Part shown: piece by piece, positions 1,641 through 57,037 of the stretch
How positions within the stretch are numbered: the first letter of the stretch is position 1
How the letters are laid out: every line of letters starts with the position of its first letter
NCBI GenBank assembly: GCA_040880105.1
Contig: JBBDJA010000017.1
Coordinates: 32,573 to 96,572, forward strand
DNA from: Waddliaceae bacterium
GTDB taxonomy: Bacteria > Chlamydiota > Chlamydiia > Chlamydiales > SLOH01
Length of the DNA: 64,000 nt
Direction of reading: 5' to 3'
The notes under the pieces: generated by a model
What the model saw: only the letters and a program-made list of their open reading frames with translations
What the model was told of the DNA's origin: nothing
The model's database searches: none
Made by a program: the position numbers and the translations under genes

Positions 1641-1815
1641 CTTAAGGAACTGCTGATTAACTCAGGTTAATTTAATTTTGCATGAATTTTTTCTAAAATT
1701 CGAAAAATCAATCGAAATTAACTGTTTAACAGTTAATAGAGTGCGATTTTATCGAATTTTAGGAAAAATTCATGCAAAATTAAATTAACCTGAGTTAATC
1801 AGAGGTTCCATAAGT
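1641..1815. repeat. Palindromic MITE/REP-like element, copy 1 (both arms type A, near-perfect long hairpin)
   Basis: The left arm is CTTAAGGAACTGCTGATTAACTCAGGTTAATTTAATTTTGCATGAATTTTTTCTAAAATTCGAAAAATCAATCGAA. The right arm is its reverse complement (...TTCGAATTTTAGGAAAAATTCATGCAAAATTAAATTAACCTGAGTTAATCAGAGGTTCCATAAG). The centre holds a small palindrome, TTAACTGTTTAACAGTTAA. The same sequence recurs at five other loci in this window. Confidence 0.9.
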
Positions 1816-6747: not shown

Positions 6748-7113
6748 ATGCCAACCGGTGTCGGCACCGATATTATCGAGATTCCTCGAATCAAACAGGC
6801 GATAGAGAGACAAGGTCAACCTTTTATCGATCGCCTGTTTACTCAAGCCGAACAAACCTACTGTAAAACATTCAAAGATCCCTACTCGCATTACGCTGTG
6901 AGATTTGCCGGTAAAGAAGCGGTGCTAAAAGCACTTGGAACGGGAATGAGAGAGGGCATCACCTGGCTGGATATTGAAATTATCAATAACGATCTGGGCA
7001 AACCGATAGTTTTTATCTCGGATGCGTTAAAAGAGCGATTCAGCTCGCCTGAGATACAGATCTCTTTGAGTCATTCAAAATCGACAGCAATCGCTTTTGT
7101 CATCGTCTCTTAA
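6748..7113 (+). CDS. acpS: Holo-[acyl-carrier-protein] synthase
   Basis: The protein begins MPTGVGTDIIEIPRIKQAI and contains FTQAEQTYC, FAGKEAVLKALG and ISLSHSKSTAIAFV. I start it at the ATG at 6748, preceded by GAGGCGAGG, not at the track's 6640. Confidence 0.85.
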   Translation: MPTGVGTDIIEIPRIKQAIERQGQPFIDRLFTQAEQTYCKTFKDPYSHYAVRFAGKEAVLKALGTGMREGITWLDIEIINNDLGKPIVFISDALKERFSSPEIQISLSHSKSTAIAFVIVS

Positions 7114-7116
7114 AGC

Positions 7117-7265
7117 AATCTCTGATTAACACAGGTTAATTAAATTTTGCATGAATTTTTTCTAAAATCCGAAATAACAGTCCAGGTTAAACGATTGGGT
7201 TTTTATCGAACTTCAGAAAAAAGGCGCAAAATTTAACAATCTGAGTTAATCAGGGGTTCCTAAAG
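7117..7265. repeat. Palindromic MITE/REP-like element, copy 2 (A arm on the left, diverged B arm on the right)
   Basis: The left arm is TCTGATTAACACAGGTTAATTAAATTTTGCATGAATTTTTTCTAAAATCCGAAA. The right arm is AAAAAGGCGCAAAATTTAACAATCTGAGTTAATCAGGGGTTCCTAAAG. The copy lies in the convergent acpS/doxX gap. Confidence 0.85.
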
Positions 7266-7304
7266 AAACCTTCCAGTGAAATCAGACGGTTATCAGAGGT
7301 TCCT

Positions 7305-7769
7305 TCAACGTCTTTCCAGTTTGAAATGTTTAATGATCGCATCCAGTGAAAAAGCGCCCGGTCCAAAACAGAGCACCAAAAGAGCTGTTAGCAAATATAA
7401 AAACGGAGTCTCTTGAACGAATCCTTGCGGATTTTGCATAAAGTTTTCGACCACTGCATAATGAGCCTTTGCATATGCCACAGTCATTATAGCAATTAAC
7501 GGAATTGCTATGATCCTTGAACCAAGGCCGAACACAAGTAGTACTCCCCCGAGCGTTTCAAATAGGGCCACTAGGTAGGCTAAAATGTTTGGAAAGGGAA
7601 TATCGACTGAAGTAAAAAAATTGATCACGCTATCGATATTTTGTAACTTTCCCCATCCGGCATAGAAAAAAGCAATGCCCCAAAAGAGTCGCATAAACAA
7701 TAGCAATGGGTGTTTAAGAATATCTCCAAGTGCGGTTAACCCTTTTACAATGGCATGGATTCCTGACAT
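7305..7769 (-). CDS. DoxX-family membrane protein
   Basis: 154 aa with 4 TM segments. LFMRLFWGIAFFYAGWGKL and FETLGGVLLVFGLGSR are typical of DoxX. Confidence 0.7.
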   Translation of the reverse strand: MSGIHAIVKGLTALGDILKHPLLLFMRLFWGIAFFYAGWGKLQNIDSVINFFTSVDIPFPNILAYLVALFETLGGVLLVFGLGSRIIAIPLIAIMTVAYAKAHYAVVENFMQNPQGFVQETPFLYLLTALLVLCFGPGAFSLDAIIKHFKLERR

Positions 7770-19274: not shown

Positions 19275-20276
19275 ATGATAGTTTTGGGAATTGAAAGTAC
19301 ATGCGATGAGACCGGCTGCGCAGTTGTTAAAGACGGTCGAGAGATTCTCTCAAATCTTGTTGCCTCACAAATCAACCTACACAAGCGTTTTGGGGGGGTT
19401 GTTCCGGAACTTGCATGCCGAGAGCACGCCGATCTTTTCATTCCCCTACTAAACAAAGCGCTAAACGAAGCTAATGTCACCCTCAATCAAATCGATTTGA
19501 TCGCTGTCGCAAATGGCCCAGGACTTATTGGAGCACTCCTCGTTGGGCTGAGTGCAGCCAAAGGACTCTCTTTTGCATTAAAAAAACCGCTGATCGGAGT
19601 CAATCACATCGAGGCTCACCTCTATGCTGCCATCATGTCGGCAAAGGAAGAGATTGAATATCCCTGTATCGGAGCCGTTCTTTCCGGAGGACACACCTCA
19701 CTTGTGTTAGTGAAAAATATTGGAGAGTACGAGTTGATCGGACAGACGCAAGATGATGCGATCGGCGAGGCATTTGATAAAGTCGCAAAGCTATTAAATC
19801 TCCCCTACCCCGGAGGGCCTGAAGTTGAAAAACTGGCAAAAAAGGGAAACCAAGCCGCCTTCCCCTTGAAGTCGGGAACAATAAAGAACCGGCCCTTTGA
19901 CTTCTCCTTTTCCGGACTTAAAACAGGGGTACTCTACGCTTCAAGAAAACAAACCCTCACCCCCCAAGTAAGAGAAGACCTTGCCGCCTCATTTCAACAC
20001 ACCGCATTCGAAGATATCATTTCAAAAACCCTCAAAGCAGCAAAACAGTATCAATGCAACTCCGTTCTTCTTGGCGGTGGGGTAACCAACAACCAGACGC
20101 TACGCAATATGTTCGCTCAAACAGATCTCAATCTCATGTGGCCAACCAAGGAACTGACGCTTGACAATGCGGCAATGATCGCCGGCCTTGGGTTTCATCG
20201 CTACAAGATTGAAGGGAAAAGCGACCTTCACCTAGAAGCGCAAACAAGAATCCCTTGGTCTTTAGGGAACCTCTGA
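19275..20276 (+). CDS. tsaD: tRNA N6-adenosine threonylcarbamoyltransferase TsaD (Gcp/Kae1 family)
   Basis: The protein begins MIVLGIESTCDETGCAVV and contains NHIEAHLYA, SGGHTSL, DDAIGEAFDKVAKLLNLPYPGGP and GGGVTNNQTLR. Confidence 0.94.
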   Translation: MIVLGIESTCDETGCAVVKDGREILSNLVASQINLHKRFGGVVPELACREHADLFIPLLNKALNEANVTLNQIDLIAVANGPGLIGALLVGLSAAKGLSFALKKPLIGVNHIEAHLYAAIMSAKEEIEYPCIGAVLSGGHTSLVLVKNIGEYELIGQTQDDAIGEAFDKVAKLLNLPYPGGPEVEKLAKKGNQAAFPLKSGTIKNRPFDFSFSGLKTGVLYASRKQTLTPQVREDLAASFQHTAFEDIISKTLKAAKQYQCNSVLLGGGVTNNQTLRNMFAQTDLNLMWPTKELTLDNAAMIAGLGFHRYKIEGKSDLHLEAQTRIPWSLGNL

Positions 20277-20423
20277 TTCACTCAGATTATTAAATTTAGT
20301 GCCTTTTTCCTTAAATTCGATACAATCGCACTCGCTTAACAGTTAAGTTCGATTAATTTTTCGAATTTTAGAAAAAATTCATGCAAAATTAAATGAACCT
20401 GAGTGAATCAGAGGCTCCTTAGG
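20261..20423. repeat. Palindromic MITE/REP-like element, copy 3 (inverted relative to copies 2, 4, 5 and 6; overlaps the last codons and stop of tsaD)
   Basis: The left (B-type) arm is TTTAGGGAACCTCTGATTCACTCAGATTATTAAATTTAGTGCCTTTTTCCTTAAATTCGA. The right (A-type) arm is TTCGAATTTTAGAAAAAATTCATGCAAAATTAAATGAACCTGAGTGAATCAGAGGCTCCTTAGG. The tsaD TGA (20274-20276) lies inside the conserved CTCTGATT core. Confidence 0.85.
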
Positions 20424-20538
20424 AAACTCTTAAGTCCATCTAATTGCACTTTTTTAGAGGTTCTTATCAGACAAATATTCCAAAATAATCCCCACTTGTG
20501 GTATTGTATCTTCTTAATCAATAAATAGAGATTTGACC

Positions 20539-20694
20539 ATGGCAAGCAAAAGAGAAAAAATTAAACTAAAAAGCTCAAAGAGTTCGCACTTCTATTACTC
20601 AGTTAAAAACAAGACTAACTCGCCTGACCGCATTTCACTACGCAAATACGACCCAACTCTCCGTGAGCACGTCGAATATAAAGAAACTAAATAA
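20539..20694 (+). CDS. rpmG: 50S ribosomal protein L33 (short ORF absent from the supplied track)
   Basis: My own translation gives MASKREKIKLKSSKSSHFYYSVKNKTNSPDRISLRKYDPTLREHVEYKETK (51 aa). This matches the L33 pattern (REKIKL.S......FY...KNK......L.LRK.DP..R.HV.YKE.K). Confidence 0.85.
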   Translation: MASKREKIKLKSSKSSHFYYSVKNKTNSPDRISLRKYDPTLREHVEYKETK

Positions 20695-25667: not shown

Positions 25668-28600
25668 TTAGCCGTTCAAATATTCCAACACACGATCTGT
25701 GACGGCATACGCATCATCCGGATCAAAATCGTAGCTATTTGTTATATCTGATACTGTTGGTTTTCCATTCTTTATCATCATTTTGTACTTTAACACCGAT
25801 CTCAATTTACCTAGCTCAGTCACTTTCTCTAGAGTCTCTTCTTCAGCGAGTACAAGATCGTCAGTCATTTCAATTTCTACGTCTAACGATTGAATACCAT
25901 CATTTGATTTATTAATGATTAGTTGTATTTTACGATTTTCTCTACCCTGTTCTCGACGATAACCAAAATCTTGACCTCTAACAGAAATGCGAGGCATCTC
26001 TTCCATCACTAGTGCACCTACACGAACCATGGGTTCGACTAAATAATTCATTCCACTCTGAGTAACGGCCGCTTTTGCTAAAACTTTCCACTCCTCCTCG
26101 AAACTATCTAAAAAATGATTATAGAAATCAGGATTATTTCCGCCTCCCATCCCCGATGTCATAGTAATTATGTTACCTTCAATCTCAAAATTTCCAAGCT
26201 GAGGCAAGTCTCGATTGAATTGCCGATCCACTTTTTCACTACTATCGAGCATTAAATGCTCTTCAAGTGAGCTGCCTTTCGTTTTAGCCAGTACCTGTAA
26301 TTGCTTGTTCAATTGCTTAGATGCGATATCGTTAAATTTTACAACCTGTTCAGCTTCTGCTCTTAATAGTTTGCGAATTTCACTTTTAATTTGACGTGCC
26401 TGTTCTTTTAACTTTTTAATCCCGTCGCTTTTGGGGGATAAGTCAACATCATTATTTAGAGCTGTCTTAAATAAGAAATCAAAAATTTTGTCATCATCCT
26501 CTGCATTCGCTCCGCTTTCAATACAAAGGTCCACAAACTCTTTCTGGTCACTCAACGGTTTCTCAGAGTCAAAAGTGAGAAGCGTATACAGTGAGCGCAA
26601 CTTCTCTCCGCCTTTTAATCGCATGGCCATTTCGACAATCTCTTTGTCAAGATCTGACTTATGATCATAGAAGTCAAAAGGAGAAGAGTCTCCATACTCA
26701 TGAATTAAATTTTCACAGGAGTTAAAGTCACTTAAAATTCCCTCTACATCATTCAGCTGAAATTCAAATTTTGTACTATTAACTATTGCTTTCACATTCT
26801 CAAGCTCTGGCATATTGTCGTCAAAATTCCATGTATAATTGACTTCTTGTACGACATTCCCCAAAGATGTCCTAAATCTGTGTTCATTTCCCTTATCGTC
26901 TGTCATCATTACATTAACGCTTGTTGTTTTTTTATACTGAACATCTAAAGCTATAATTTCCCCTCTATCATCTCTATTCACACTCACTTCAACATTAACT
27001 CTTGCATTCCCGCCATACCTATAATTAAAATCATCATTAAGCATTTGTAAGCGATTTCCAACACCTAATTGACCTATTGTAGGTGTAAAAGCGGTAACAT
27101 AAGCACCTGGTATTTGAGTAACAGCGAGTTTTGCAAGGTTCTTCCACTTATCCTCAGCTTCTTTAAAATAGTCATCAAATGATTCTACGTAATTTGCTTT
27201 GAAGTGCACTCGGTTAGGATCGCTCATTGAACTCAGACTTAGAGCCCCTTTACCGCTATTTTTATTTGCCTCTTGAATAGTAAAGTGGATTCCCACACGC
27301 GTCATATCCACTTCAAATCCCTCGATGATTTTATCAGCAGACATACCTTCGAGCATTGAAATCGGGGGGGCACCAAATTGCTCTCTTCCTTCCCGCAAAA
27401 GTTCCTGTAACTGAGTCGTTAAAATACCGTGCGCTTCTTCAATTTTGTCAGATTCAGCAAGTAAACGGATACTCTGTTTAATCTCTCTTGCATGGTCTTC
27501 AAGGCCATCCTCTACTTTTGCTTCAATTTTTGATGCAATAAAGTTGTCAATGCGTTTGTCATGATCATCTGTCACTTTATTTGCTACACACCATTTTGCA
27601 AAATAGGTCGCGATGCTACCTATTCCATTCCATGTGAGTAAAGTATGAAGAGGAATTAGACTTTCATCTCCTAAATTCAATGCCTTTTCTAATAAAGGTA
27701 AAATCCGTTCATTGTTCTCATATCGATCATAAGCATCAAATGGAGGTTCTTCACTTATCTGCTTGATTTCTTTGAGATCTTCTCTGATTCTGTTGAGTTT
27801 TTTTTCATACTCGGTAAAATCTTTTCTATTTGCATCTGTCTCAGGAAATTTCTTGTTCATTTGACTAATCAAGCCATCGTCTACGACAAAAGAGCGTAAA
27901 TCTTCAATATTAAAATCAGTTTTAGAGAGTTCTTTGGTCCCTCTTGCTAGCTCAAAGGCAAAAAGATATGCAGCTTCTAAATCACCTCGGTTTGCGACAT
28001 CATATAGAGATTCAAGATGCGCAGCCCGCTCCTCATCGGAAAAATCCCCTGCTTGTATAAAACAGCTTTTAATCACTGAATCAGCAGCTTCTCTATAGCT
28101 TGGATCTTTGAAAACAGCCTTCCCATAATCACTGCTTTCAAACCTCTTAAGCAGGTCCATTCCGACTTGAGCATTTTTTGACTGCATATCTGCAATAACC
28201 TTCAACGCAAATGCTCCAGCCTCAGGTTCATTCATCCCCCCTTTAACAACATCGAAGGCTCTAACCTTGCCCTTACTTGCTATAACAAGTGATTGACCCT
28301 TTTTAAGTTTGAGTAAATTTTTAAGTAATGAATGTGCAGATGGAACAGCTAATTGATTAGGATCGTTTTCATACTTATCCAACTGTGCAGATAAGTCCAT
28401 ATTTTGTGACTTATCTAGATTCTTATTTGGGTTTTCTTGGGCTTCATAAAAATACTGTATAGACTCAAGATCATCTACCCCTGATTCCCTTAACTCACAG
28501 CCAAGTAAGTAACACGCTTTTGCATCTTTTTCCTCGTCCCAATGAATTCCCAAATTCGCCCGTAGCCTTAAGAGAGGAAGGAATGCTTTGCGTAAACCCT

Positions 28601-43075: not shown

Positions 43076-43102
43076 GCCAAGTCTATATTAGACTGCTTAT
43101 TA

Positions 43103-43132
43103 AGCGGCCTCACATGAGGCCGCTTTTTTTTT
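43103..43132 (+). terminator. Intrinsic terminator after omcB
   Basis: AGCGGCCTC (43103-43111) pairs with GAGGCCGCT (43116-43124) across a 4-nt loop. A T9 run follows immediately. Confidence 0.8.
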
Positions 43133-43164
43133 ACCTATCTCTCTTCCTAAATTCAAAAGATCAG

Positions 43165-43318
43165 TAAAGGAGCCTCTGGTTAACTCAGGGTAATTTAATT
43201 TTGCATGAATTTTTTCTAAAATTCAAAAAATCAATCGAACTTTAATTGAGTGCGATTTTACCGAATATCAGGAACAAGACACTAAATTTAATAATCTGAG
43301 TGAATCAGAGATTCCTAA
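43165..43318. repeat. Palindromic MITE/REP-like element, copy 4
   Basis: The left arm is TAAAGGAGCCTCTGGTTAACTCAGGGTAATTTAATTTTGCATGAATTTTTTCTAAAATTCAAAAAATCAATCGAAC. The right arm is AAGACACTAAATTTAATAATCTGAGTGAATCAGAGATTCCTAA. The copy lies in the convergent gap between omcB and the methyltransferase gene. Confidence 0.85.
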
Positions 43319-43378
43319 ATATAAAAGAATGCAGTCGAAGTTAACGGGTGTTAAAATAGAGCTAAATTTCTTTTAAGA

Positions 43379-49592: not shown

Positions 49593-51890
49593 TTGGCAAA
49601 TATGATAAAGTTCATTATCAATCCTGAAGGCGAAGCTAAAGATGAATCTTTTAGCCAAGAAATCCTCACCATCGGAAATGGGAAAGAAGATGGCTGCGAT
49701 CTGATTTTTCCAAGCGTTCAAGAAAAGCACCTGCAAATTATAAAAGAAAACGAGCAGTACTACTGTATTAATTTAATACATGACCCCTTCGCCTCTATAA
49801 ACCAGCTCCCGTTCGGCAAAAAACGCCTAGCTGTCAATGACCGTATTGAGTTTGGAGACGAGATTCTCAAGGTTGTTGAGTTAGAGATACAAAAGGTGAA
49901 TCATCCTGATAAAAAATCAAGTCCCGTAGAGGAGCAACCCGATCCCTCACCTCCAATAGACGAGCTAGACGACGCAGAATTTGACCGCTTATTAAAAGAT
50001 TTGGAGGATGAGGATAGTAAAATAGTGGCAGAGCCTCCCAGGAAAAAGGAAAAACCCGCACCTATTTTTCACCAAGAGAAAAAGCCCCTTCCACATGCTG
50101 AAAAAGAGCCTGAAAAGGAAAAATTCCAAGACTGGAAGCTGGTCATTTTTTTAATGCTTGCAATCTGCACGATTTGCAGCTCACTTTTAGGGTTTACCTA
50201 TTACTGGCAATCCACGCAAAAAGCCGACTACTTTGAAATGCGAGTGGCCGGTGCTGTGGGCGACACAAGTATGGCAATCCTCTTTGCCAAATTAAACCAC
50301 ATTTCCGCCCCGAAACAGCAGTGGTCAAACCCCGACTTTATCAACGAACAACTCAAAGGGGTCCTTGCGCCCATGATGGATAGTCTTGCGACTTTCGATC
50401 AAAAGGGAAATTTTGATCGACTCCCCTACTTTATGCGCATTTACACCTCTGAAGATCTTGCGCGCTTTTTGGTCATTGCTCAACCGCAAGCCGGTTTTTT
50501 CCCTTTCTGGTCTTCTTCCGATGCAATCGTACTTGATTCAAGCGATATGGAGATCCGAAGAATCAGCAATATTCGCGACCTAAACCGTCTGCTTGTTCAT
50601 GCCAACCCTCTAGAGGAAAAAAAGGGAAACGAAATTTCTCAGATTATTGCCAGTCAACCGCGCATTTCACTTCAAGAGATCGGGTTCAATCGAAAGCAGT
50701 GGGGATTTCAAACACCTCAAGCGCTTTCTCTTTTAAGACCCGGAGCCGAGAATAAAGTCTATAACGCGATGAGATACTATTTGTTAGGCGAATCCGTGCT
50801 TCATAAGGCAGCTTCAGTCTTTAACTCTTTCCATGGAGTTCAAGACATTGCAAAAATCCAAGATACAATTGATGATATTACAGACTTTCCCCAACTGATT
50901 TTTTACAGCTCTAACGGCGTTGAATGGGCACGGGAAGCGCAAAAAGCGATTGATGCATTTGTTCCTGAAAAAGAGATTATGATTGGGTACCTAAAGTTTG
51001 ATCCTAAAGGCGTGATCACCGGATCGCATCTTCTGATCGATAATGAAGGCATCAACTTTCCTTTTGATGAAATCGCCCAAGGCAGAACAGATCCGAATTT
51101 AATTGATCCAGCAAAGACACAACAACTTTTTGCTATGCGATTGCGATCTAGTCAATCGAATATTTCAAAACTGGAAAATGCTCCCTATATCGATCATTCC
51201 CACCCCCTATATCACCGCTTAAAATCACTTTCAGCAACTAGAGAGCGACTTCTACTACCTTTTAAAGAAGAAATTTTTCAAACAATTACACGTCAAGCGA
51301 TGCAGATCCAGCCAAACTTTGACGACCATATGCAAAAAAAGCTGAAAAAATTCTCCTCTAAAGACATGGAGATTCGTGACACAATGAAAGAGCAGTTAAA
51401 AGAACTGATCATTGAGTACCCTTCTGTCCCAATGAAGGAGCTAATTGCTTTTACCGACTCTACCGGTTTATCCACACTTTTTAAAGAAGCGATTACCAAA
51501 ATTGAGCGTACTGAAAGTGAGATCAAACTGACAGAAGAAAAAGCCGACCTGCTGCTAAGCGACATTCCAAATAGCGTCGAGCTTGAATCTTTGCATGAAA
51601 ATGTAATGGAAATTTCCGATATGCTCACATTGGCCGAGCTGCCAAACTTTGAAACTTTAAAGAAAAAACAAGCGCAATTTCAATCATTAGTTCTGCATCA
51701 ATTAAAAAAGCTTATACTAGATGAGTCAAAGCAGTTGCCTAAGAACCTTACCTTGGACCACAGCCGCTCCCTACTCATTGAAATCCTTATTTCTTCTTGG
51801 GTACGGGACCAGCAAGAGTTTGATTACTTTTTAAAAGAGCACGATGAGCTCTATGATGAAAGCCTTGGAGTCCCCTTCCATGAGGGTTAA
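49593..51890 (+). CDS. Hypothetical bitopic membrane protein: degenerate FHA-like N-terminal domain, charged linker, one TM and a large C-terminal domain
   Basis: Residues 20-95 (LTIGNGKEDGCDLIFPSVQEKHLQII...YYCINL...INQLPF...LAVNDRIEFGDEILKV) follow the FHA strand pattern but lack the canonical GR/SxxH/NG residues. The TM WKLVIFLMLAICTICSSLLGFTYYW spans aa 181-205. The start is the TTG at 49593 or the ATG at 49602. Confidence 0.65.
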   Translation: MANMIKFIINPEGEAKDESFSQEILTIGNGKEDGCDLIFPSVQEKHLQIIKENEQYYCINLIHDPFASINQLPFGKKRLAVNDRIEFGDEILKVVELEIQKVNHPDKKSSPVEEQPDPSPPIDELDDAEFDRLLKDLEDEDSKIVAEPPRKKEKPAPIFHQEKKPLPHAEKEPEKEKFQDWKLVIFLMLAICTICSSLLGFTYYWQSTQKADYFEMRVAGAVGDTSMAILFAKLNHISAPKQQWSNPDFINEQLKGVLAPMMDSLATFDQKGNFDRLPYFMRIYTSEDLARFLVIAQPQAGFFPFWSSSDAIVLDSSDMEIRRISNIRDLNRLLVHANPLEEKKGNEISQIIASQPRISLQEIGFNRKQWGFQTPQALSLLRPGAENKVYNAMRYYLLGESVLHKAASVFNSFHGVQDIAKIQDTIDDITDFPQLIFYSSNGVEWAREAQKAIDAFVPEKEIMIGYLKFDPKGVITGSHLLIDNEGINFPFDEIAQGRTDPNLIDPAKTQQLFAMRLRSSQSNISKLENAPYIDHSHPLYHRLKSLSATRERLLLPFKEEIFQTITRQAMQIQPNFDDHMQKKLKKFSSKDMEIRDTMKEQLKELIIEYPSVPMKELIAFTDSTGLSTLFKEAITKIERTESEIKLTEEKADLLLSDIPNSVELESLHENVMEISDMLTLAELPNFETLKKKQAQFQSLVLHQLKKLILDESKQLPKNLTLDHSRSLLIEILISSWVRDQQEFDYFLKEHDELYDESLGVPFHEG

Positions 51891-51909: not shown

Positions 51910-52078
51910 CTAAGGAAGGTCTGATTAACGCAGGTTAACTAAATTTTGCATGAATTTTTTCTAAAATTCGAAAAAACAATCGAACTTAACTACTAGATAG
52001 TTAAGTGAGTGCGTTTTTCTCGAATTCCCTTGGAAAAGGCACAAAATTTAATAAGCTGCGTAATTAGGGGTTCCTTAA
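51910..52078. repeat. Palindromic MITE/REP-like element, copy 5
   Basis: The left arm is CTAAGGAAGGTCTGATTAACGCAGGTTAACTAAATTTTGCATGAATTTTTTCTAAAATTCGAAAAAACAATCGAAC. The centre is TTAACTACTAGATAGTTAAG. The right arm is GAGTGCGTTTTTCTCGAATTCCCTTGGAAAAGGCACAAAATTTAATAAGCTGCGTAATTAGGGGTTCCTTAA. Confidence 0.88.
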
Positions 52079-52116
52079 TGGAGATTTTAAATAAATAGCT
52101 GCCGGCATAGGGCAAA

Positions 52117-52187
52117 TTGAGTGCATTTTTTATCGAATTCCAGTCAAAAAGTTACGGAATTTAACAAACAGACTTATTCAGAACTTC
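52117..52187. repeat. Solo half-copy (B arm only) of the same element, about 40 nt after copy 5
   Basis: TTGAGTGCATTTTTTATCGAATTCCAGTCAAAAAGTTACGGAATTTAACAAACAGACTTATTCAGAACTTC aligns with the B arm of copies 5 and 6 (GAGTGCGTTTTTCTCGAATTCCCTTGGAAAAGGCACAAAATTTAA...). Confidence 0.6.
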
Positions 52188-52262
52188 TCTATACTTTCTC
52201 TTCACTTTTTTTAATGTAGCTTCTACAATAACGTGGATAATAGAAAAGTTTTGCAGGTAAAC

Positions 52263-56832: not shown

Positions 56833-57004
56833 TTAAGGAGTCTCTGATAAACTCGGGTTCTATTAAATTTTGGATGAATTTTTTCTATAATTCGAAAAAA
56901 CATTTGATCGTAACTATTTAATAGTTAATCGAGTATGTTTTTCTCGAATTCCCTTGGAAAAGGCACAAAATTTAACAATAGAAGTCATATAGAGGTTCCT
57001 TAAG
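56833..57004. repeat. Palindromic MITE/REP-like element, copy 6 (most degenerate termini)
   Basis: The left arm is TTAAGGAGTCTCTGATAAACTCGGGTTCTATTAAATTTTGGATGAATTTTTTCTATAATTCGAAAAAAC. The centre is TAACTATTTAATAGTTA. The right arm is GAGTATGTTTTTCTCGAATTCCCTTGGAAAAGGCACAAAATTTAACAATAGAAGTCATATAGAGGTTCCTTAAG. Confidence 0.8.
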
Positions 57005-57012
57005 AAATGAAT

Positions 57013-57037
57013 AGCGGAAGAGAACCTTCCGCTTTTA
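57013..57037. terminator. Hairpin immediately downstream of trxA, possibly a bidirectional terminator
   Basis: AGCGGAAG (57013-57020) pairs with CTTCCGCT (57026-57033). TTTT follows on the plus strand, and ATTCATTTC follows on the minus strand. Confidence 0.45.

What the first reader, a model, noticed from the sequence alone, without database searches (positions are those of the whole stretch)
1641..1815. Dispersed family of ~150-175 bp palindromic MITE/REP-like elements (6 full copies plus remnants in 64 kb)
The same element occurs at 1641-1815, 7117-7265, 20261-20423, 43165-43318, 51910-52078 and 56833-57004, and a half-copy lies at 52117-52187. It has three parts. The first is a terminal inverted repeat beginning TAAGGA(A/G)C.TCTGATTAACTCAGG. 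The second is a long arm: either an 'A' arm (TTAATTTAATTTTGCATGAATTTTTTCTAAAATTCGAAAAA) or a diverged 'B' arm (reverse complement of GAGTGCGTTTTTCTCGAATTCCCTTGGAAAAGGCACAAAATTTAA). The third is a small central palindrome, TTAAC-N-GTTAA. Copy 1 is A/A and folds into a near-perfect hairpin over almost its whole length. The other copies are A/B, and copy 3 is inverted relative to them. Every copy is intergenic and lies just past a gene's 3' end; three sit in convergent-gene gaps. No transposase gene is present in the window, so the elements would be non-autonomous. This density and placement recall Correia, ERIC and RUP elements and the Rickettsia palindromic elements. It suggests roles in termination or mRNA stability, or recent mobilisation, in an obligate intracellular lineage.
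Basis: seen in the sequence. Interest (0 to 1): 0.68.

Follow-up and report, generated by a model that had tools for sequence, protein, structure and literature searches.

The report
Small mobile palindromic repeats in chlamydiae
The repeats are real: a family of about 160-base non-coding "jumping" DNA elements (MITEs) in an environmental chlamydia-like bacterium that insert at TTAA-like sites, often on a gene's stop codon. This is a well-known kind of element, and I found no report of one in this bacterial group.

Summary
The window holds six full copies (146-164 bp bodies), one half copy and two terminal remnants of one palindromic element. Its 23-nt terminus matches nine times against 0 expected by chance.

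The window is from a Waddliaceae-like chlamydial MAG and is 99.9% identical to GCA_040903145.1. The element is a MITE, shown by:
- imperfect terminal inverted repeats starting GGAA(C/G)(C/G)TCTGATTAAC, with no coding capacity;
- 4-bp direct target-site duplications (TTAA, TAAA/TTTA, CTAA/TTAG), perfect in 7 of 11 full copies;
- two clean empty-versus-filled orthologous sites between this genome and a related MAG (SLOH01), one in each direction;
- one shared old insertion;
- no element at the copy 5 and copy 6 sites in a more distant syntenic relative.

The targets contain TAA or TAG. About a third of the flanks coincide with a neighbouring gene's stop codon, and copy 3 supplies the last five codons of TsaD.

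The tips match the E. coli IS5 inverted repeat at 10-12 of 16 bases, and the 4-bp YTAR-like target also fits IS5. An IS5-group transposase is therefore the likely mobiliser, but none was found. A termination role is not supported. A 35-nt internal block is unusually conserved and remains unexplained.

Verdict: a new member of a known kind, of moderate interest.

The parts
1642..1813 (+). Copy 1. Duplication TTAA (1642-1645), body 1646-1809, duplication ATAA (1810-1813, one mismatch). Left inverted repeat 1646-1668; conserved A block 1673-1707; central palindrome TTAACTG-TTTAA-CAGTTAA 1718-1736. Lies between the recF 3' end (1833) and the start of a 69-aa ORF (1621), both on the minus strand.
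   Evidence: Folds at -93.1 kcal/mol, z = -20.7.
7111..7264 (+). Copy 2. Duplication TAAA (7111-7114), body 7115-7260, duplication TAAA (7261-7264). The central palindrome is deleted. The acpS stop codon TAA (7111-7113) lies inside the left duplication.
   Evidence: the left-flank ORF carries the ACPS domain.
7291..7306 (+). Solo right-terminus remnant TATCAGAGGTTCC followed by TTA. That TTA is the reverse complement of the DoxX gene's TAA stop codon (ORF 7305-7769, minus strand).
20262..20422 (-). Copy 3, inverted. Duplication TTAG (20262-20265), body 20266-20418, duplication TTAG (20419-20422). TsaD (19275-20276) reads through the duplication into the inverted repeat and stops at TGA (20274-20276). 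The element therefore encodes its last five residues, SLGNL.
   Evidence: The orthologous site in SLOH01000039.1 is empty.
20423..20468 (+). 46-bp remnant ending AGAGGTTCTTATC, a decayed right terminus. Together with copy 3 it forms the 207-bp insert that is absent from the SLOH01 orthologous tsaD-rpmG spacer.
43165..43319 (+). Copy 4. Duplication TAAA (43165-43168), body 43169-43315, duplication TAAA (43316-43319). The central palindrome is deleted. It lies between convergent genes for an OmcB-like protein and a methyltransferase, 40 nt beyond the OmcB-like gene's own terminator (43102-43125).
51910..52078 (+). Copy 5. Duplication CTAA (51910-51913), body 51914-52074, duplication TTAA (52075-52078, one mismatch). 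The left tip GGAAGGTCTGATTAAC matches the IS5 inverted repeat at 12 of 16 positions. It lies 18 nt after the stop of a 765-aa ORF and upstream of hisS.
   Evidence: The site is empty in the syntenic relative L040/L041.
52109..52190 (+). Half copy, B arm only (model positions 84-160), with the variant terminus ...CTTATTCAGAACTTCT. The terminal 16-mer (52173-52188) read on the minus strand is AGAAGTTCTGAATAAG, which matches the IS5 inverted repeat at 12 of 16.
56833..57003 (+). Copy 6, the most diverged full copy. Duplication TTAA (56833-56836), body 56837-56999, duplication TTAA (57000-57003). It lies between convergent genes for a SpoU methylase and thioredoxin, beyond the thioredoxin terminator (57033-57013, minus strand).
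   Evidence: The short-read contig L050 breaks inside it.

Best explanation
These are miniature inverted-repeat transposable elements (MITEs). They are 146-164-bp non-coding, non-autonomous DNA transposons of a Waddliaceae-like chlamydial lineage.

**Anatomy.** Each copy is an imperfect palindrome. It has ~23-bp terminal inverted repeats (5'-GGAA[C/G][C/G]TCTGATTAACTCAGGTT), two diverged arms (A and B) and a short central palindrome.

**Mechanism.** A transposase encoded elsewhere in the genome, or now lost, binds the two termini and excises or copies the element. It integrates the element with a 4-bp staggered cut at T/A-rich tetranucleotides (TTAA, TAAA/TTTA, CTAA/TTAG), which become a 4-bp direct duplication.

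**Why copies sit at gene 3' ends.** The targets contain TAA or TAG. In a ~90% coding genome only insertions that spare genes survive, so copies accumulate at or just past stop codons. Duplicating the target gives each flanking gene its own stop. Otherwise the reading frame runs a few codons into the inverted repeat and ends at the TGA of CTCTGA.

**What is shown.** Repeat family; inverted repeats; 4-bp duplication; insertion polymorphism between genomes in both directions; one shared old insertion; nested and decayed copies; no coding capacity.

**What is inferred.**
- The mobiliser is a DDE transposase of the IS5 family, IS5 group. I put this at about 0.5, from the 4-bp YTAR-like target and tips matching the IS5 inverted repeat at 10-12 of 16.
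- The copies are mostly selfish or neutral passengers rather than terminators.
- The very conserved 35-nt A block is a cis-acting requirement for transposition.
For: - **Family and termini.**: 9 terminus matches against 0 expected.
- **No coding capacity.** All six frames of every copy are full of stops.
- **Target-site duplication.** In 11 full copies from two genomes, 7 have perfect 4-bp direct repeats and 3 have one mismatch. Pairing left and right flanks at random reaches 7 matches in only 0.17% of shuffles. All 5 perfect non-palindromic pairs (TAAA x3, CTAA, TTTA) are direct, not inverted.
- **Site A, filled in SLOH01 and empty in this genome.** L044 (GCA_040903145.1) reads CAGCG-TTAA-GGAATT. 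L003 (SLOH01) reads CAGCG-TTAG-[161-bp element]-TTAA-GAACTT. Flanks are 77-79% identical.
- **Copy 3 site, filled in the window and empty in SLOH01.** SLOH01000039.1 and an ENA contig have tsaD, 37 bp, then rpmG. The window has a 207-bp insert there.
- **Shared old insertion.** Both genomes carry a copy at the DUF2608 3' end. In L044 it is decayed and interrupted by another copy.
- **More distant relative.** A syntenic relative with 65-68% nucleotide identity has no element at the copy 5 and copy 6 sites.
- **Stop-codon coincidence.**
- **IS5 link.** The IS5 ends are GGAAGGTGCGAA[T/C]AAG. Element tips match at 8-12 of 16, whereas only 0.25% of window 16-mers reach 10 or more. The IS5 duplication motif is YTAR (PMC10359306).
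- **Repeat behaviour in assemblies.** Short-read contigs break inside copies.
Against: - **No mobiliser found.** No transposase gene and no full-length IS with matching termini turned up in the window, in the related loci I read through (no transposase evident among the translated ORFs of L005 and L007; none among the genes called with Pfam families on L044), or on the Waddlia plasmid, which carries only IS1. I could not search a whole genome.
- **Imperfect fit to IS5.** TAAA/TTTA targets are not YTAR. The IS5 resemblance rests on 16 nt compared with one reference element, and other IS families were not compared systematically.
- **Unusual conservation pattern.** The termini are less conserved (75-77%) than an internal 35-nt block (94%), which is atypical for a plain MITE.
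- **Compensatory changes.** The long hairpin shows more of them than shuffles do: 12 pairs against 4.8 +/- 1.7. This could reflect selection on structure rather than transposition alone.
- **No recent activity shown.** Copies are 74-93% identical.
Confidence: 0.88

Rival explanations
1. The elements are exapted, or primarily functional, structured elements. The long hairpin or the conserved A block would act at gene 3' ends as an RNA stabiliser or terminator, a small RNA, a promoter or enhancer, or a protein-binding or bent-DNA site. On this view selection on that function, not transposition, explains their conservation and placement.
For: - Compensatory changes keep the hairpin: 93.7% of cells are paired and 12 pairs changed on both sides, with 0 of 500 shuffles as high.
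- The A block is 94% conserved against 72-77% elsewhere, and it is depleted in both shared and singleton variants.
- Element identity between the two genomes (82%) is at least as high as that of the flanking coding DNA (76-78%).
- G:T mismatches outnumber A:C on one strand, 16 pairs to 7.
- Folding is strong, with z = -6.5 to -20.7.
Against: - Orthologous sites are empty in relatives, and insertions are lineage-specific in both directions.
- Copies 4 and 6 lie beyond canonical terminators, and the element has no G+C-rich stem followed by a T-tract.
- Where only one neighbouring gene can read through the copy, orientation relative to that gene is mixed: copies 1 and 3 and the L044 copy are antisense, copy 5 is sense.
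- Both strands fold equally well.
- Decayed copies lose or mutate the A block.
- No Rfam family matches.
- 9 of the 12 covarying pairs lie in the outer helix (columns 1-34), which spans the inverted repeats. There both ends must fit one transposase, and conversion between the arms of a palindrome would give the same signal.
- The G:T excess is biased, because the structure was derived on that strand.
Confidence: 0.1
2. The elements are REP/BIME-type or IS200/IS605-type palindromic elements (PATEs). These are moved as single-stranded DNA by a Y1 (HUH) transposase such as a RAYT or TnpA, not by a DDE transposase.
For: The whole element is palindromic, lies in intergenic regions at gene 3' ends and is present at high density. 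There are weak hints of strand asymmetry in the mismatches.
Against: - Clean 4-bp direct duplications and an empty site that holds a single copy of the tetranucleotide. Y1 transposases make no duplication.
- Bodies of 146-164 bp with true terminal inverted repeats, not 20-40-bp hairpins with GTAG or CGTC heads.
- No Y1 transposase domain among the window's ORFs scanned against Pfam.
Confidence: 0.01
3. The similarity comes from segmental duplication or recombination that carried the sequence around, not from transposition.
For: None beyond the repetition itself. One pair of copies in L003 has mismatched flanking tetranucleotides (CAAA...TTAG and TTAG...TTAA), which could reflect recombination between copies.
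Against: Similarity stops exactly at the GGAA...TTCC termini in all 11 copies. Flanks do not align with each other. Precise presence and absence at orthologous sites comes with a 4-bp duplication.
Confidence: 0.01

Closest known systems
IS5-family (IS5 group) insertion sequences and their MITE derivatives
   Same: The duplication is 4 bp at T-A-centred tetranucleotides; TTAA, CTAA and TTAG fit the IS5 motif YTAR. Termini begin GGAA. The consensus tip matches the E. coli IS5 inverted repeat at 10 of 16 positions and the GG variants at 11-12 of 16.
   Different: There is no transposase. No full-length parent was found. TAAA/TTTA targets fall outside YTAR. The body is one long palindrome rather than two unrelated IS ends.
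Correia elements (CREE/NEMIS) of Neisseria
   Same: They are ~100-155-bp MITEs with ~26-bp inverted repeats, present at high density, often at gene ends, able to fold as long hairpins, and with no cognate transposase known (from my own knowledge). The termini share a GATTAAC...CAGG motif by eye.
   Different: Correia elements duplicate TA, not 4 bp. They are confined to Neisseria. RNase III processing, IHF binding and promoter creation are documented for them and untested here.
RUP (Streptococcus pneumoniae) and ERIC/IRU (enterobacteria)
   Same: These are ~107-127-bp imperfect palindromic MITE-like repeats in intergenic, often transcribed, regions. RUP has termini like those of an IS (IS630-Spn1), which is taken as its mobiliser (from my own knowledge).
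   Different: They give TA duplications (IS630 type). Their hosts and sequences are different.
MITECca01 of the Cardinium endosymbiont (PMC9769881)
   Same: It is a MITE family in an obligate intracellular symbiont, found by manual curation and restricted to one lineage.
   Different: It is ~240 bp and derives from an identified IS982-family parent (ISCca4) present in the same genome. Here the parent is unidentified and the termini and duplication point to IS5.
Rickettsia palindromic elements (RPE)
   Same: They are ~100-150-bp palindromic repeats in an obligate intracellular lineage, and some contribute codons to host proteins (from my own knowledge). Here copy 3 encodes the TsaD tail.
   Different: RPEs typically sit in frame inside genes and lack demonstrated inverted repeats and duplications. 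The elements here have both, and they touch only the extreme 3' ends of ORFs.

Membership tests
MITE (non-autonomous DDE-type DNA transposon) | Short (under ~300-500 bp) with no coding capacity | tested here: met
   Bodies are 146-164 bp. All six frames of 10 full copies (six in the window, four in SLOH01 loci) are interrupted by stops.
MITE (non-autonomous DDE-type DNA transposon) | Terminal inverted repeats | tested here: met
   The ~23-nt termini GGAACCTCTGATTAACTCAGGTT occur at both ends: 9 matches in the window against 0 expected (alignment A2).
MITE (non-autonomous DDE-type DNA transposon) | Target-site duplication of fixed length flanking each copy | tested here: met
   The 4-bp direct repeats are perfect in 7 of 11 copies and have one mismatch in 3. 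Shuffle p = 0.0017. All 5 non-palindromic perfect cases are direct.
MITE (non-autonomous DDE-type DNA transposon) | Presence/absence at orthologous sites, the empty site holding one copy of the target | tested here: met
   Site A: L044 is empty (TTAA) and L003 is filled (TTAG...TTAA). Copy 3 site: the window is filled and SLOH01000039.1 is empty. The copy 5 and 6 sites are empty in L040/L041.
MITE (non-autonomous DDE-type DNA transposon) | Many dispersed copies with unrelated flanks | tested here: met
   The window holds 6 full copies and 3 fragments in 64 kb. L044 holds 1 full copy and at least 3 fragments in 7.7 kb. Copies occur on five SLOH01 contigs. Only the element aligns between loci.
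MITE (non-autonomous DDE-type DNA transposon) | A cognate autonomous IS with matching termini in the same or a related genome | not testable with these tools
   None in the window or the fetched loci.
IS5 family, IS5 group (as source of the termini and the mobilising transposase) | 4-bp duplication at YTAR-type targets | tested here: inconclusive
   The length of 4 bp is met. TTAA, CTAA and TTAG fit YTAR, but TAAA/TTTA (4 of 11 copies) do not.
IS5 family, IS5 group (as source of the termini and the mobilising transposase) | Termini resembling IS5-group inverted repeats (GGAAGGT...) | tested here: met
   Tips match the E. coli IS5 inverted repeat at 8-12 of 16 positions. Only 0.25% of window 16-mers reach 10 or more, and 0.007% reach 12. 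Only one reference IS was compared.
IS5 family, IS5 group (as source of the termini and the mobilising transposase) | An IS5-type DDE transposase gene bounded by the same termini | not testable with these tools
   No transposase was found in any sequence held. A whole-genome search is needed.
IS701 family (alternative source; also gives an exact 4-bp duplication) | End consensus ---YACT-Y--YR | tested here: not met
   The consensus in PMC2266710 does not fit GGAACCTCTGATTAAC.
REP/BIME elements (RAYT-mobilised) | 20-40-bp palindromes with a GTAG/CGTC head and no target duplication | tested here: not met
   Bodies are 146-164 bp, inverted repeats begin GGAA, and 4-bp duplications are present.
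Correia elements | TA duplication and the Neisseria-type 26-bp inverted repeat | tested here: not met
   The duplication is 4 bp, and a TA-only model does not fit copies 3 and 4. The termini share only a GATTAAC..CAGG motif by eye.
Intrinsic (Rho-independent) terminator | G+C-rich stem-loop followed by a T-tract, directly after the gene | tested here: not met
   The scan calls no such site in the elements, apart from a weak mini-hairpin in the inverted repeat of copy 4. True terminators lie between the gene and the element at copies 4 and 6.
Any described RNA family (Rfam 15) | Covariance-model match at or near the gathering score | tested here: not met
   There were 0 matches at gathering score across the window. 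At E<=1 on the copy 5 region there was only a chance hit (SCARNA7, 11.5 bits against 65).

The most novel reading that the evidence does not exclude
The element may be more than a selfish MITE. Its 35-nt A block (AAATTTTGCATGAATTTTTTCTAAAATTCGAAAAA; 94% conserved against ~75% for the termini) and the compensatory maintenance of the 56-pair hairpin could mark a portable functional module. Candidates are a structured RNA, a protein- or nucleoid-factor-binding bent-DNA site, or a promoter or enhancer of the kind known for the IS5 end. Stop-codon-targeted transposition would have spread this module to the 3' ends of, by extrapolation, a hundred or more genes in an obligate intracellular bacterium. 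That would rewire 3'-end biology, and copy 3 shows it can also rewrite a protein's C-terminus (TsaD).
Probability: 0.15. Interest if true: 0.6.

Novelty: new member of a known kind. Interest (0 to 1): 0.36.

Why it matters
- **A first for the group, as far as I could find.** Classical chlamydiae almost lack repeats and mobile DNA. In the held literature I found no paper describing a MITE in any chlamydial lineage. This family shows that environmental, Waddliaceae-like chlamydiae carried an active cut-or-copy transposition system across a speciation-scale split.
- **A tidy insertion logic.** A target that contains a stop codon is duplicated on insertion, so compact convergent genes each keep a stop.
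- **Practical value.** Copies break short-read assemblies of these MAGs. They change annotated C-termini, as in TsaD. They offer presence/absence markers for strain and lineage typing.
- **A possible tool.** If the mobilising transposase were found, the pair would be a candidate native genetic tool for a group that is hard to manipulate.
- **An open question.** The unusually conserved internal block is a concrete, testable candidate for a cis-acting or exapted function.

Tried and rejected
1. **Metagenome search.** I scanned the metagenome collection with a 20-mer from the A arm. It returned 30 loci and none is a true copy.
2. **Viral, phage and plasmid searches.**
   - Viral contig scans with the terminus and with the A block gave 0 hits.
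   - Phage and plasmid BLAST with whole copies gave no match.
   - A 40-nt terminus query against plasmids at E<=10 gave only chance hits in Campylobacter.
3. **Parent IS search.**
   - No transposase domain in about 40 window ORFs.
   - None evident among the translated ORFs of L005 and L007, and none among the genes called with Pfam families on L044.
   - The Waddlia pWc plasmid carries only an IS1 transposase.
4. **Peptide trick.** I hoped to retrieve more copies through an element-encoded peptide. No open frame is long enough.
5. **Extending the window.** One look-up found nothing. The other gave 2.9 kb of new sequence with one more arm fragment.
6. **Promoter reading of the A block.** I checked it by eye against sigma-70, sigma-28 and sigma-54 consensus sequences and found no convincing match. 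The scan tool calls no promoter inside any copy.
7. **Strand-specific RNA function.** Both strands fold equally well. Orientation relative to neighbouring genes is mixed. The G:T excess over A:C is biased by how the structure was derived.
8. **IS701 as parent.** Its 4-bp duplication fits but its end consensus does not.
9. **Alternative duplication lengths.** A TA (2-bp) or 3-bp model does not fit copies 3, 4 and 5, whereas 4 bp does.
Full report

Yes. Aligning the six claimed copies gives 77% mean column identity, with long invariant runs. A profile built from them finds exactly those six full copies in the 64-kb window, plus a half copy at about 52109-52190, and nothing else above noise. A profile built from 11 copies gives the same result. 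The 23-nt terminus GGAACCTCTGATTAACTCAGGTT occurs 9 times with up to 3 mismatches, against 0.00 in 100 shuffles. A shorter terminal probe adds a solo terminus at 7291-7303.

Similarity stops sharply at the ends of the element and the flanks are unrelated. Copy 1 folds into an almost perfect 164-nt hairpin (-93.1 kcal/mol, z = -20.7). Copy 5 folds less perfectly, and equally well on both strands (z = -6.5 and -6.4).

**2. Where does the window come from?**

The window has 42.5% G+C. It encodes an OmcB-like protein (Chlam_OMP6 plus DUF11 domains) and ordinary housekeeping genes. It is 99.9% identical to contigs of MAG GCA_040903145.1, labelled 'Waddliaceae bacterium'. Its HisS is at most 64% identical to any other protein in the 5.8-billion-protein collection, so the lineage is isolated.

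An exact 24-mer from the element, scanned over one genome per GTDB species, hit only one other organism. That is the Waddliaceae MAG SLOH01 (GCA_007132595.1), on five contigs; two further hits were chance matches. Metagenome, viral, phage and plasmid collections gave no true copy. The family is therefore narrow.

**3. What is it? Boundaries and target-site duplication.**

I aligned 11 full copies with their flanks: six from the window, one from another contig of the same MAG (L044) and four from SLOH01. The element proper runs from GGAA... to ...TTCC. The four bases outside each end form a direct repeat:

| Copy | Left / right |
|---|---|
| Copy 2 | TAAA / TAAA |
| Copy 3 | CTAA / CTAA (TTAG on the plus strand) |
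| Copy 4 | TAAA / TAAA |
| Copy 6 | TTAA / TTAA |
| L002 | TAAA / TAAA |
| L006 | TTAA / TTAA |
| L044 | TTTA / TTTA |
| Copy 1 | TTAA / ATAA |
| Copy 5 | CTAA / TTAA |
| L003b | TTAG / TTAA |
| L003a | CAAA / TTAG |

Seven of 11 are perfect. Random re-pairing of left and right flanks reaches 7 matches in only 0.17% of shuffles. All five perfect non-palindromic cases are direct, not inverted, so these four bases are not part of the inverted repeat.

**4. Empty against filled sites.**

*Site A.* SLOH01 contig L003 and contig L044 of the window's MAG are orthologous: DUF2608, YjbH, ALAD, with YjbH 81% identical and flanking DNA 77-79% identical. At the YjbH/ALAD junction, L044 reads ...CAGCG-TTAA-GGAATT.... 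L003 reads ...CAGCG-TTAG-[161-bp element]-TTAA-GAACTT.... One TTAA, which contains the YjbH stop codon, became two copies flanking the element.

*Copy 3 site.* In SLOH01000039.1 (TsaD 86% identical, DNA 76-78%) and in an independent ENA contig, tsaD is followed after 37 bp by rpmG, with no element. The window has a 207-bp insert there. It consists of copy 3 with its TTAG duplications plus a 46-bp remnant that ends in a decayed right terminus.

*Shared site.* At the DUF2608 3' end both genomes carry a copy. In L044 it is decayed and interrupted by another copy, so it is a shared, older insertion with a later nested one.

*A further site.* L044 has decayed copies upstream of ahpC that L003 lacks.

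*More distant relative.* A relative with conserved gene order (dnaE, MFS, an 800-aa gene, hisS, aspS, FKBP, SpoU; 65-68% DNA identity) has no element at the copy 5, half-copy or copy 6 sites.

**5. Relation to genes.**

The element has no open frame. Its targets contain TAA or TAG, and in 7 of 22 flanks the neighbouring gene's stop codon lies in the duplication or in the inverted repeat:

- acpS at copy 2 (stop in the duplication);
- tsaD at copy 3 (TGA of CTCTGA, 16 nt inside);
- both genes at each of the two L003 copies;
- one gene at the L002 copy.

The solo terminus at 7291-7303 also abuts the DoxX stop codon. TsaD in the window ends ...IPWSLGNL, with SLGNL encoded by the duplication and the inverted repeat. 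The SLOH01 protein ends ...IPWTQRQLFQNNPHL. So the placement 'just past the 3' end' follows from a target that contains a stop codon plus selection against disruptive insertions. This is an inference.

Termination is not the explanation. The OmcB-like gene has its own strong terminator (43102-43125) before copy 4. Thioredoxin has its own (57033-57013) before copy 6. The element has no G+C-rich stem followed by a T-tract. Where only one neighbouring gene can read through the element, its orientation relative to that gene is mixed.

**6. Which transposase?**

None was found in the window, in the related loci I read through or on the Waddlia plasmid, which carries only IS1.

Two features point to the IS5 group of the IS5 family. 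First, the duplication is exactly 4 bp at T-A-centred tetranucleotides. The IS5 motif is YTAR (PMC10359306), and TTAA, CTAA and TTAG fit it while TAAA/TTTA do not. Second, the tips resemble the IS5 inverted repeat. I read GGAAGGTGCGAA[T/C]AAG from E. coli K-12. The consensus tip matches at 10 of 16, the GG variants at 11-12 of 16 (copy 5: GGAAGGTCTGATTAAC), and the half-copy terminus AGAAGTTCTGAATAAG at 12 of 16. Only 0.25% of all 16-mers in the window reach 10, and 0.007% reach 12.

IS701 also makes exact 4-bp duplications, but its end consensus does not fit (PMC2266710). I put the IS5 assignment at about 0.5. It rests on 16 nt and one reference element.

**7. Age and dynamics.**

Copies are 74-93% identical. 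The mean is 81% within the window's genome, 87% within SLOH01 and 82% between genomes. Copies do not cluster by genome: copy 5 and the L044 copy group with two SLOH01 copies. Each genome nevertheless has insertions the other lacks (section 4).

So several subfamilies, with at least three terminus variants, predate the split and stayed active afterwards in both lineages. Later exchange between the lineages is an alternative. Nothing indicates very recent activity. Extrapolating about one full copy per 10 kb to a ~2-Mb genome suggests on the order of 100-200 copies; this is an inference and was not measured. Short-read contigs repeatedly end inside copies.

**8. Structure and an unexplained feature.**

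RNAalifold on the 11 bodies predicts one long hairpin of 56 pairs. 93.7% of cells form standard pairs. 12 pairs show changes on both sides, against 4.8 +/- 1.7 in shuffles, with 0 of 500 as high. Slid controls collapse. Nine of those pairs lie in the outer helix (columns 1-34), which spans the inverted repeats. There both ends must fit one transposase, and conversion between the arms of a palindrome would give the same signal. Copy 1's right arm has evidently been converted to match its left arm. The covariation is therefore not proof of a functional RNA.

The conservation pattern is more puzzling. A 35-nt block inside the A arm (AAATTTTGCATGAATTTTTTCTAAAATTCGAAAAA; 1673-1707 in copy 1) has 94% mean pairwise identity. 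The termini have 75-77%, the complementary B block 72% and the centre 58%. This holds among the seven copies of the window's genome, which were not found through that block. The block is depleted in both shared variants (p = 0.003) and singleton variants (p = 0.02).

My preferred reading, which is an inference, is a sub-terminal sequence required in cis for transposition. An exapted function such as bent DNA, a protein-binding site, a promoter or an RNA motif is not excluded. No promoter or Rfam match supports one.

**9. Comparison with known elements.**

The element works like a classical bacterial MITE. It meets every defining feature I could test: size, no coding capacity, inverted repeats, fixed-length duplication, insertion polymorphism and dispersed copies. 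The exception is an identified parent IS, which these tools cannot test.

It is not a REP/BIME, a PATE, a Correia element (those duplicate TA), an RPE or a terminator; each fails a defining feature tested here. Its overall look (palindromic, at gene ends, orphan) is closest to Correia, RUP and ERIC. Its termini and duplication are closest to IS5.

The nearest literature analogue in an intracellular symbiont is MITECca01 of Cardinium, whose IS982 parent is known (PMC9769881). Full-text searches found no paper that describes MITEs in chlamydiae. The Waddlia genome paper reports only repeats over 200 bp and transposases.

**10. Verdict.**

The functional suggestions (termination, mRNA stability, recent mobilisation) and the 'REP-like' label are not.

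It is a new member of a known kind, of moderate interest. The points of interest are:
- a MITE family with verified insertion polymorphism in Chlamydiota, which I could not find described before;
- stop-codon-sparing insertion;
- an unexplained, highly conserved internal block.

Noticed in passing
window 20262-20276 (3' end of tsaD, ORF 19275-20276): The last five residues and the stop codon of TsaD (SLGNL*) are encoded by the duplication and inverted repeat of copy 3. The SLOH01 orthologue instead ends TQRQLFQNNPHL*. The insertion replaced the C-terminal tail of an essential tRNA-modification enzyme.
   Followed up: yes
window 1673-1707 and the equivalent block in every copy (alignment A2, columns 29-63): A 35-nt block in the A arm is far more conserved (94%) than the inverted repeats (75-77%) or its complementary B-arm block (72%). 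It contains a perfect mini-hairpin, GAATTTT-TTCT-AAAATTC, and roughly phased A/T tracts. This is unexplained.
   Followed up: partly
window 20469-20545 (upstream of rpmG): The ~75 bp between the copy 3 insert and the rpmG (L33) start is clearly better conserved with SLOH01 than the neighbouring coding DNA (76-78% identical). It is probably the rpmG promoter or leader.
   Followed up: no
window 25668-30884 (minus strand): A 1738-aa ORF has no Pfam match at E<=1e-5. It is a large uncharacterised chlamydial protein.
   Followed up: no
window 49593-51890 (plus strand): A 765-aa ORF has no Pfam match. An 800-aa gene, also without a Pfam family, occupies the same position upstream of hisS in the distant syntenic relative (L040/L041).
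   Followed up: no
window 43102-43135 and 57013-57033: Two textbook intrinsic terminators follow the OmcB-like gene and the thioredoxin gene. One is AAGCGGCCTCACATGAGGCCGCTT followed by a T-run. The other is AGCGGAAGGTTCTCTTCCGCT on the minus strand. Each lies between the gene and the MITE copy.
   Followed up: partly
L009, L043, L050 (Logan short-read contigs of SRR27977663): The contigs end inside element copies (copies 3, 5 and 6), so the repeat fragments short-read assemblies of this organism. The GenBank MAG GCA_040903145.1 is also cut into ~7-10-kb contigs in the same regions.
   Followed up: partly
L003 646-815 and 3786-3955 (SLOH01000080.1): Two copies in the same orientation bracket a 3-kb segment (DUF2608 and yjbH). 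Their flanking tetranucleotides are swapped-looking (CAAA...TTAG and TTAG...TTAA). This could reflect recombination between copies or be coincidence.
   Followed up: no
L044 2900-3090 and 7090-7280; L050 2817-2872: Further decayed, nested and half copies occur in other contigs of the same genome, including one copy inserted into an older copy. Element remnants are as common as full copies.
   Followed up: partly
L007 557-1675 (SLOH01000165.1, minus strand): A 372-aa ORF lies about 340 bp from an A-arm remnant (2016-2094). By eye it looks like a Fic/DOC-type protein; I did not scan it against any family library.
   Followed up: no
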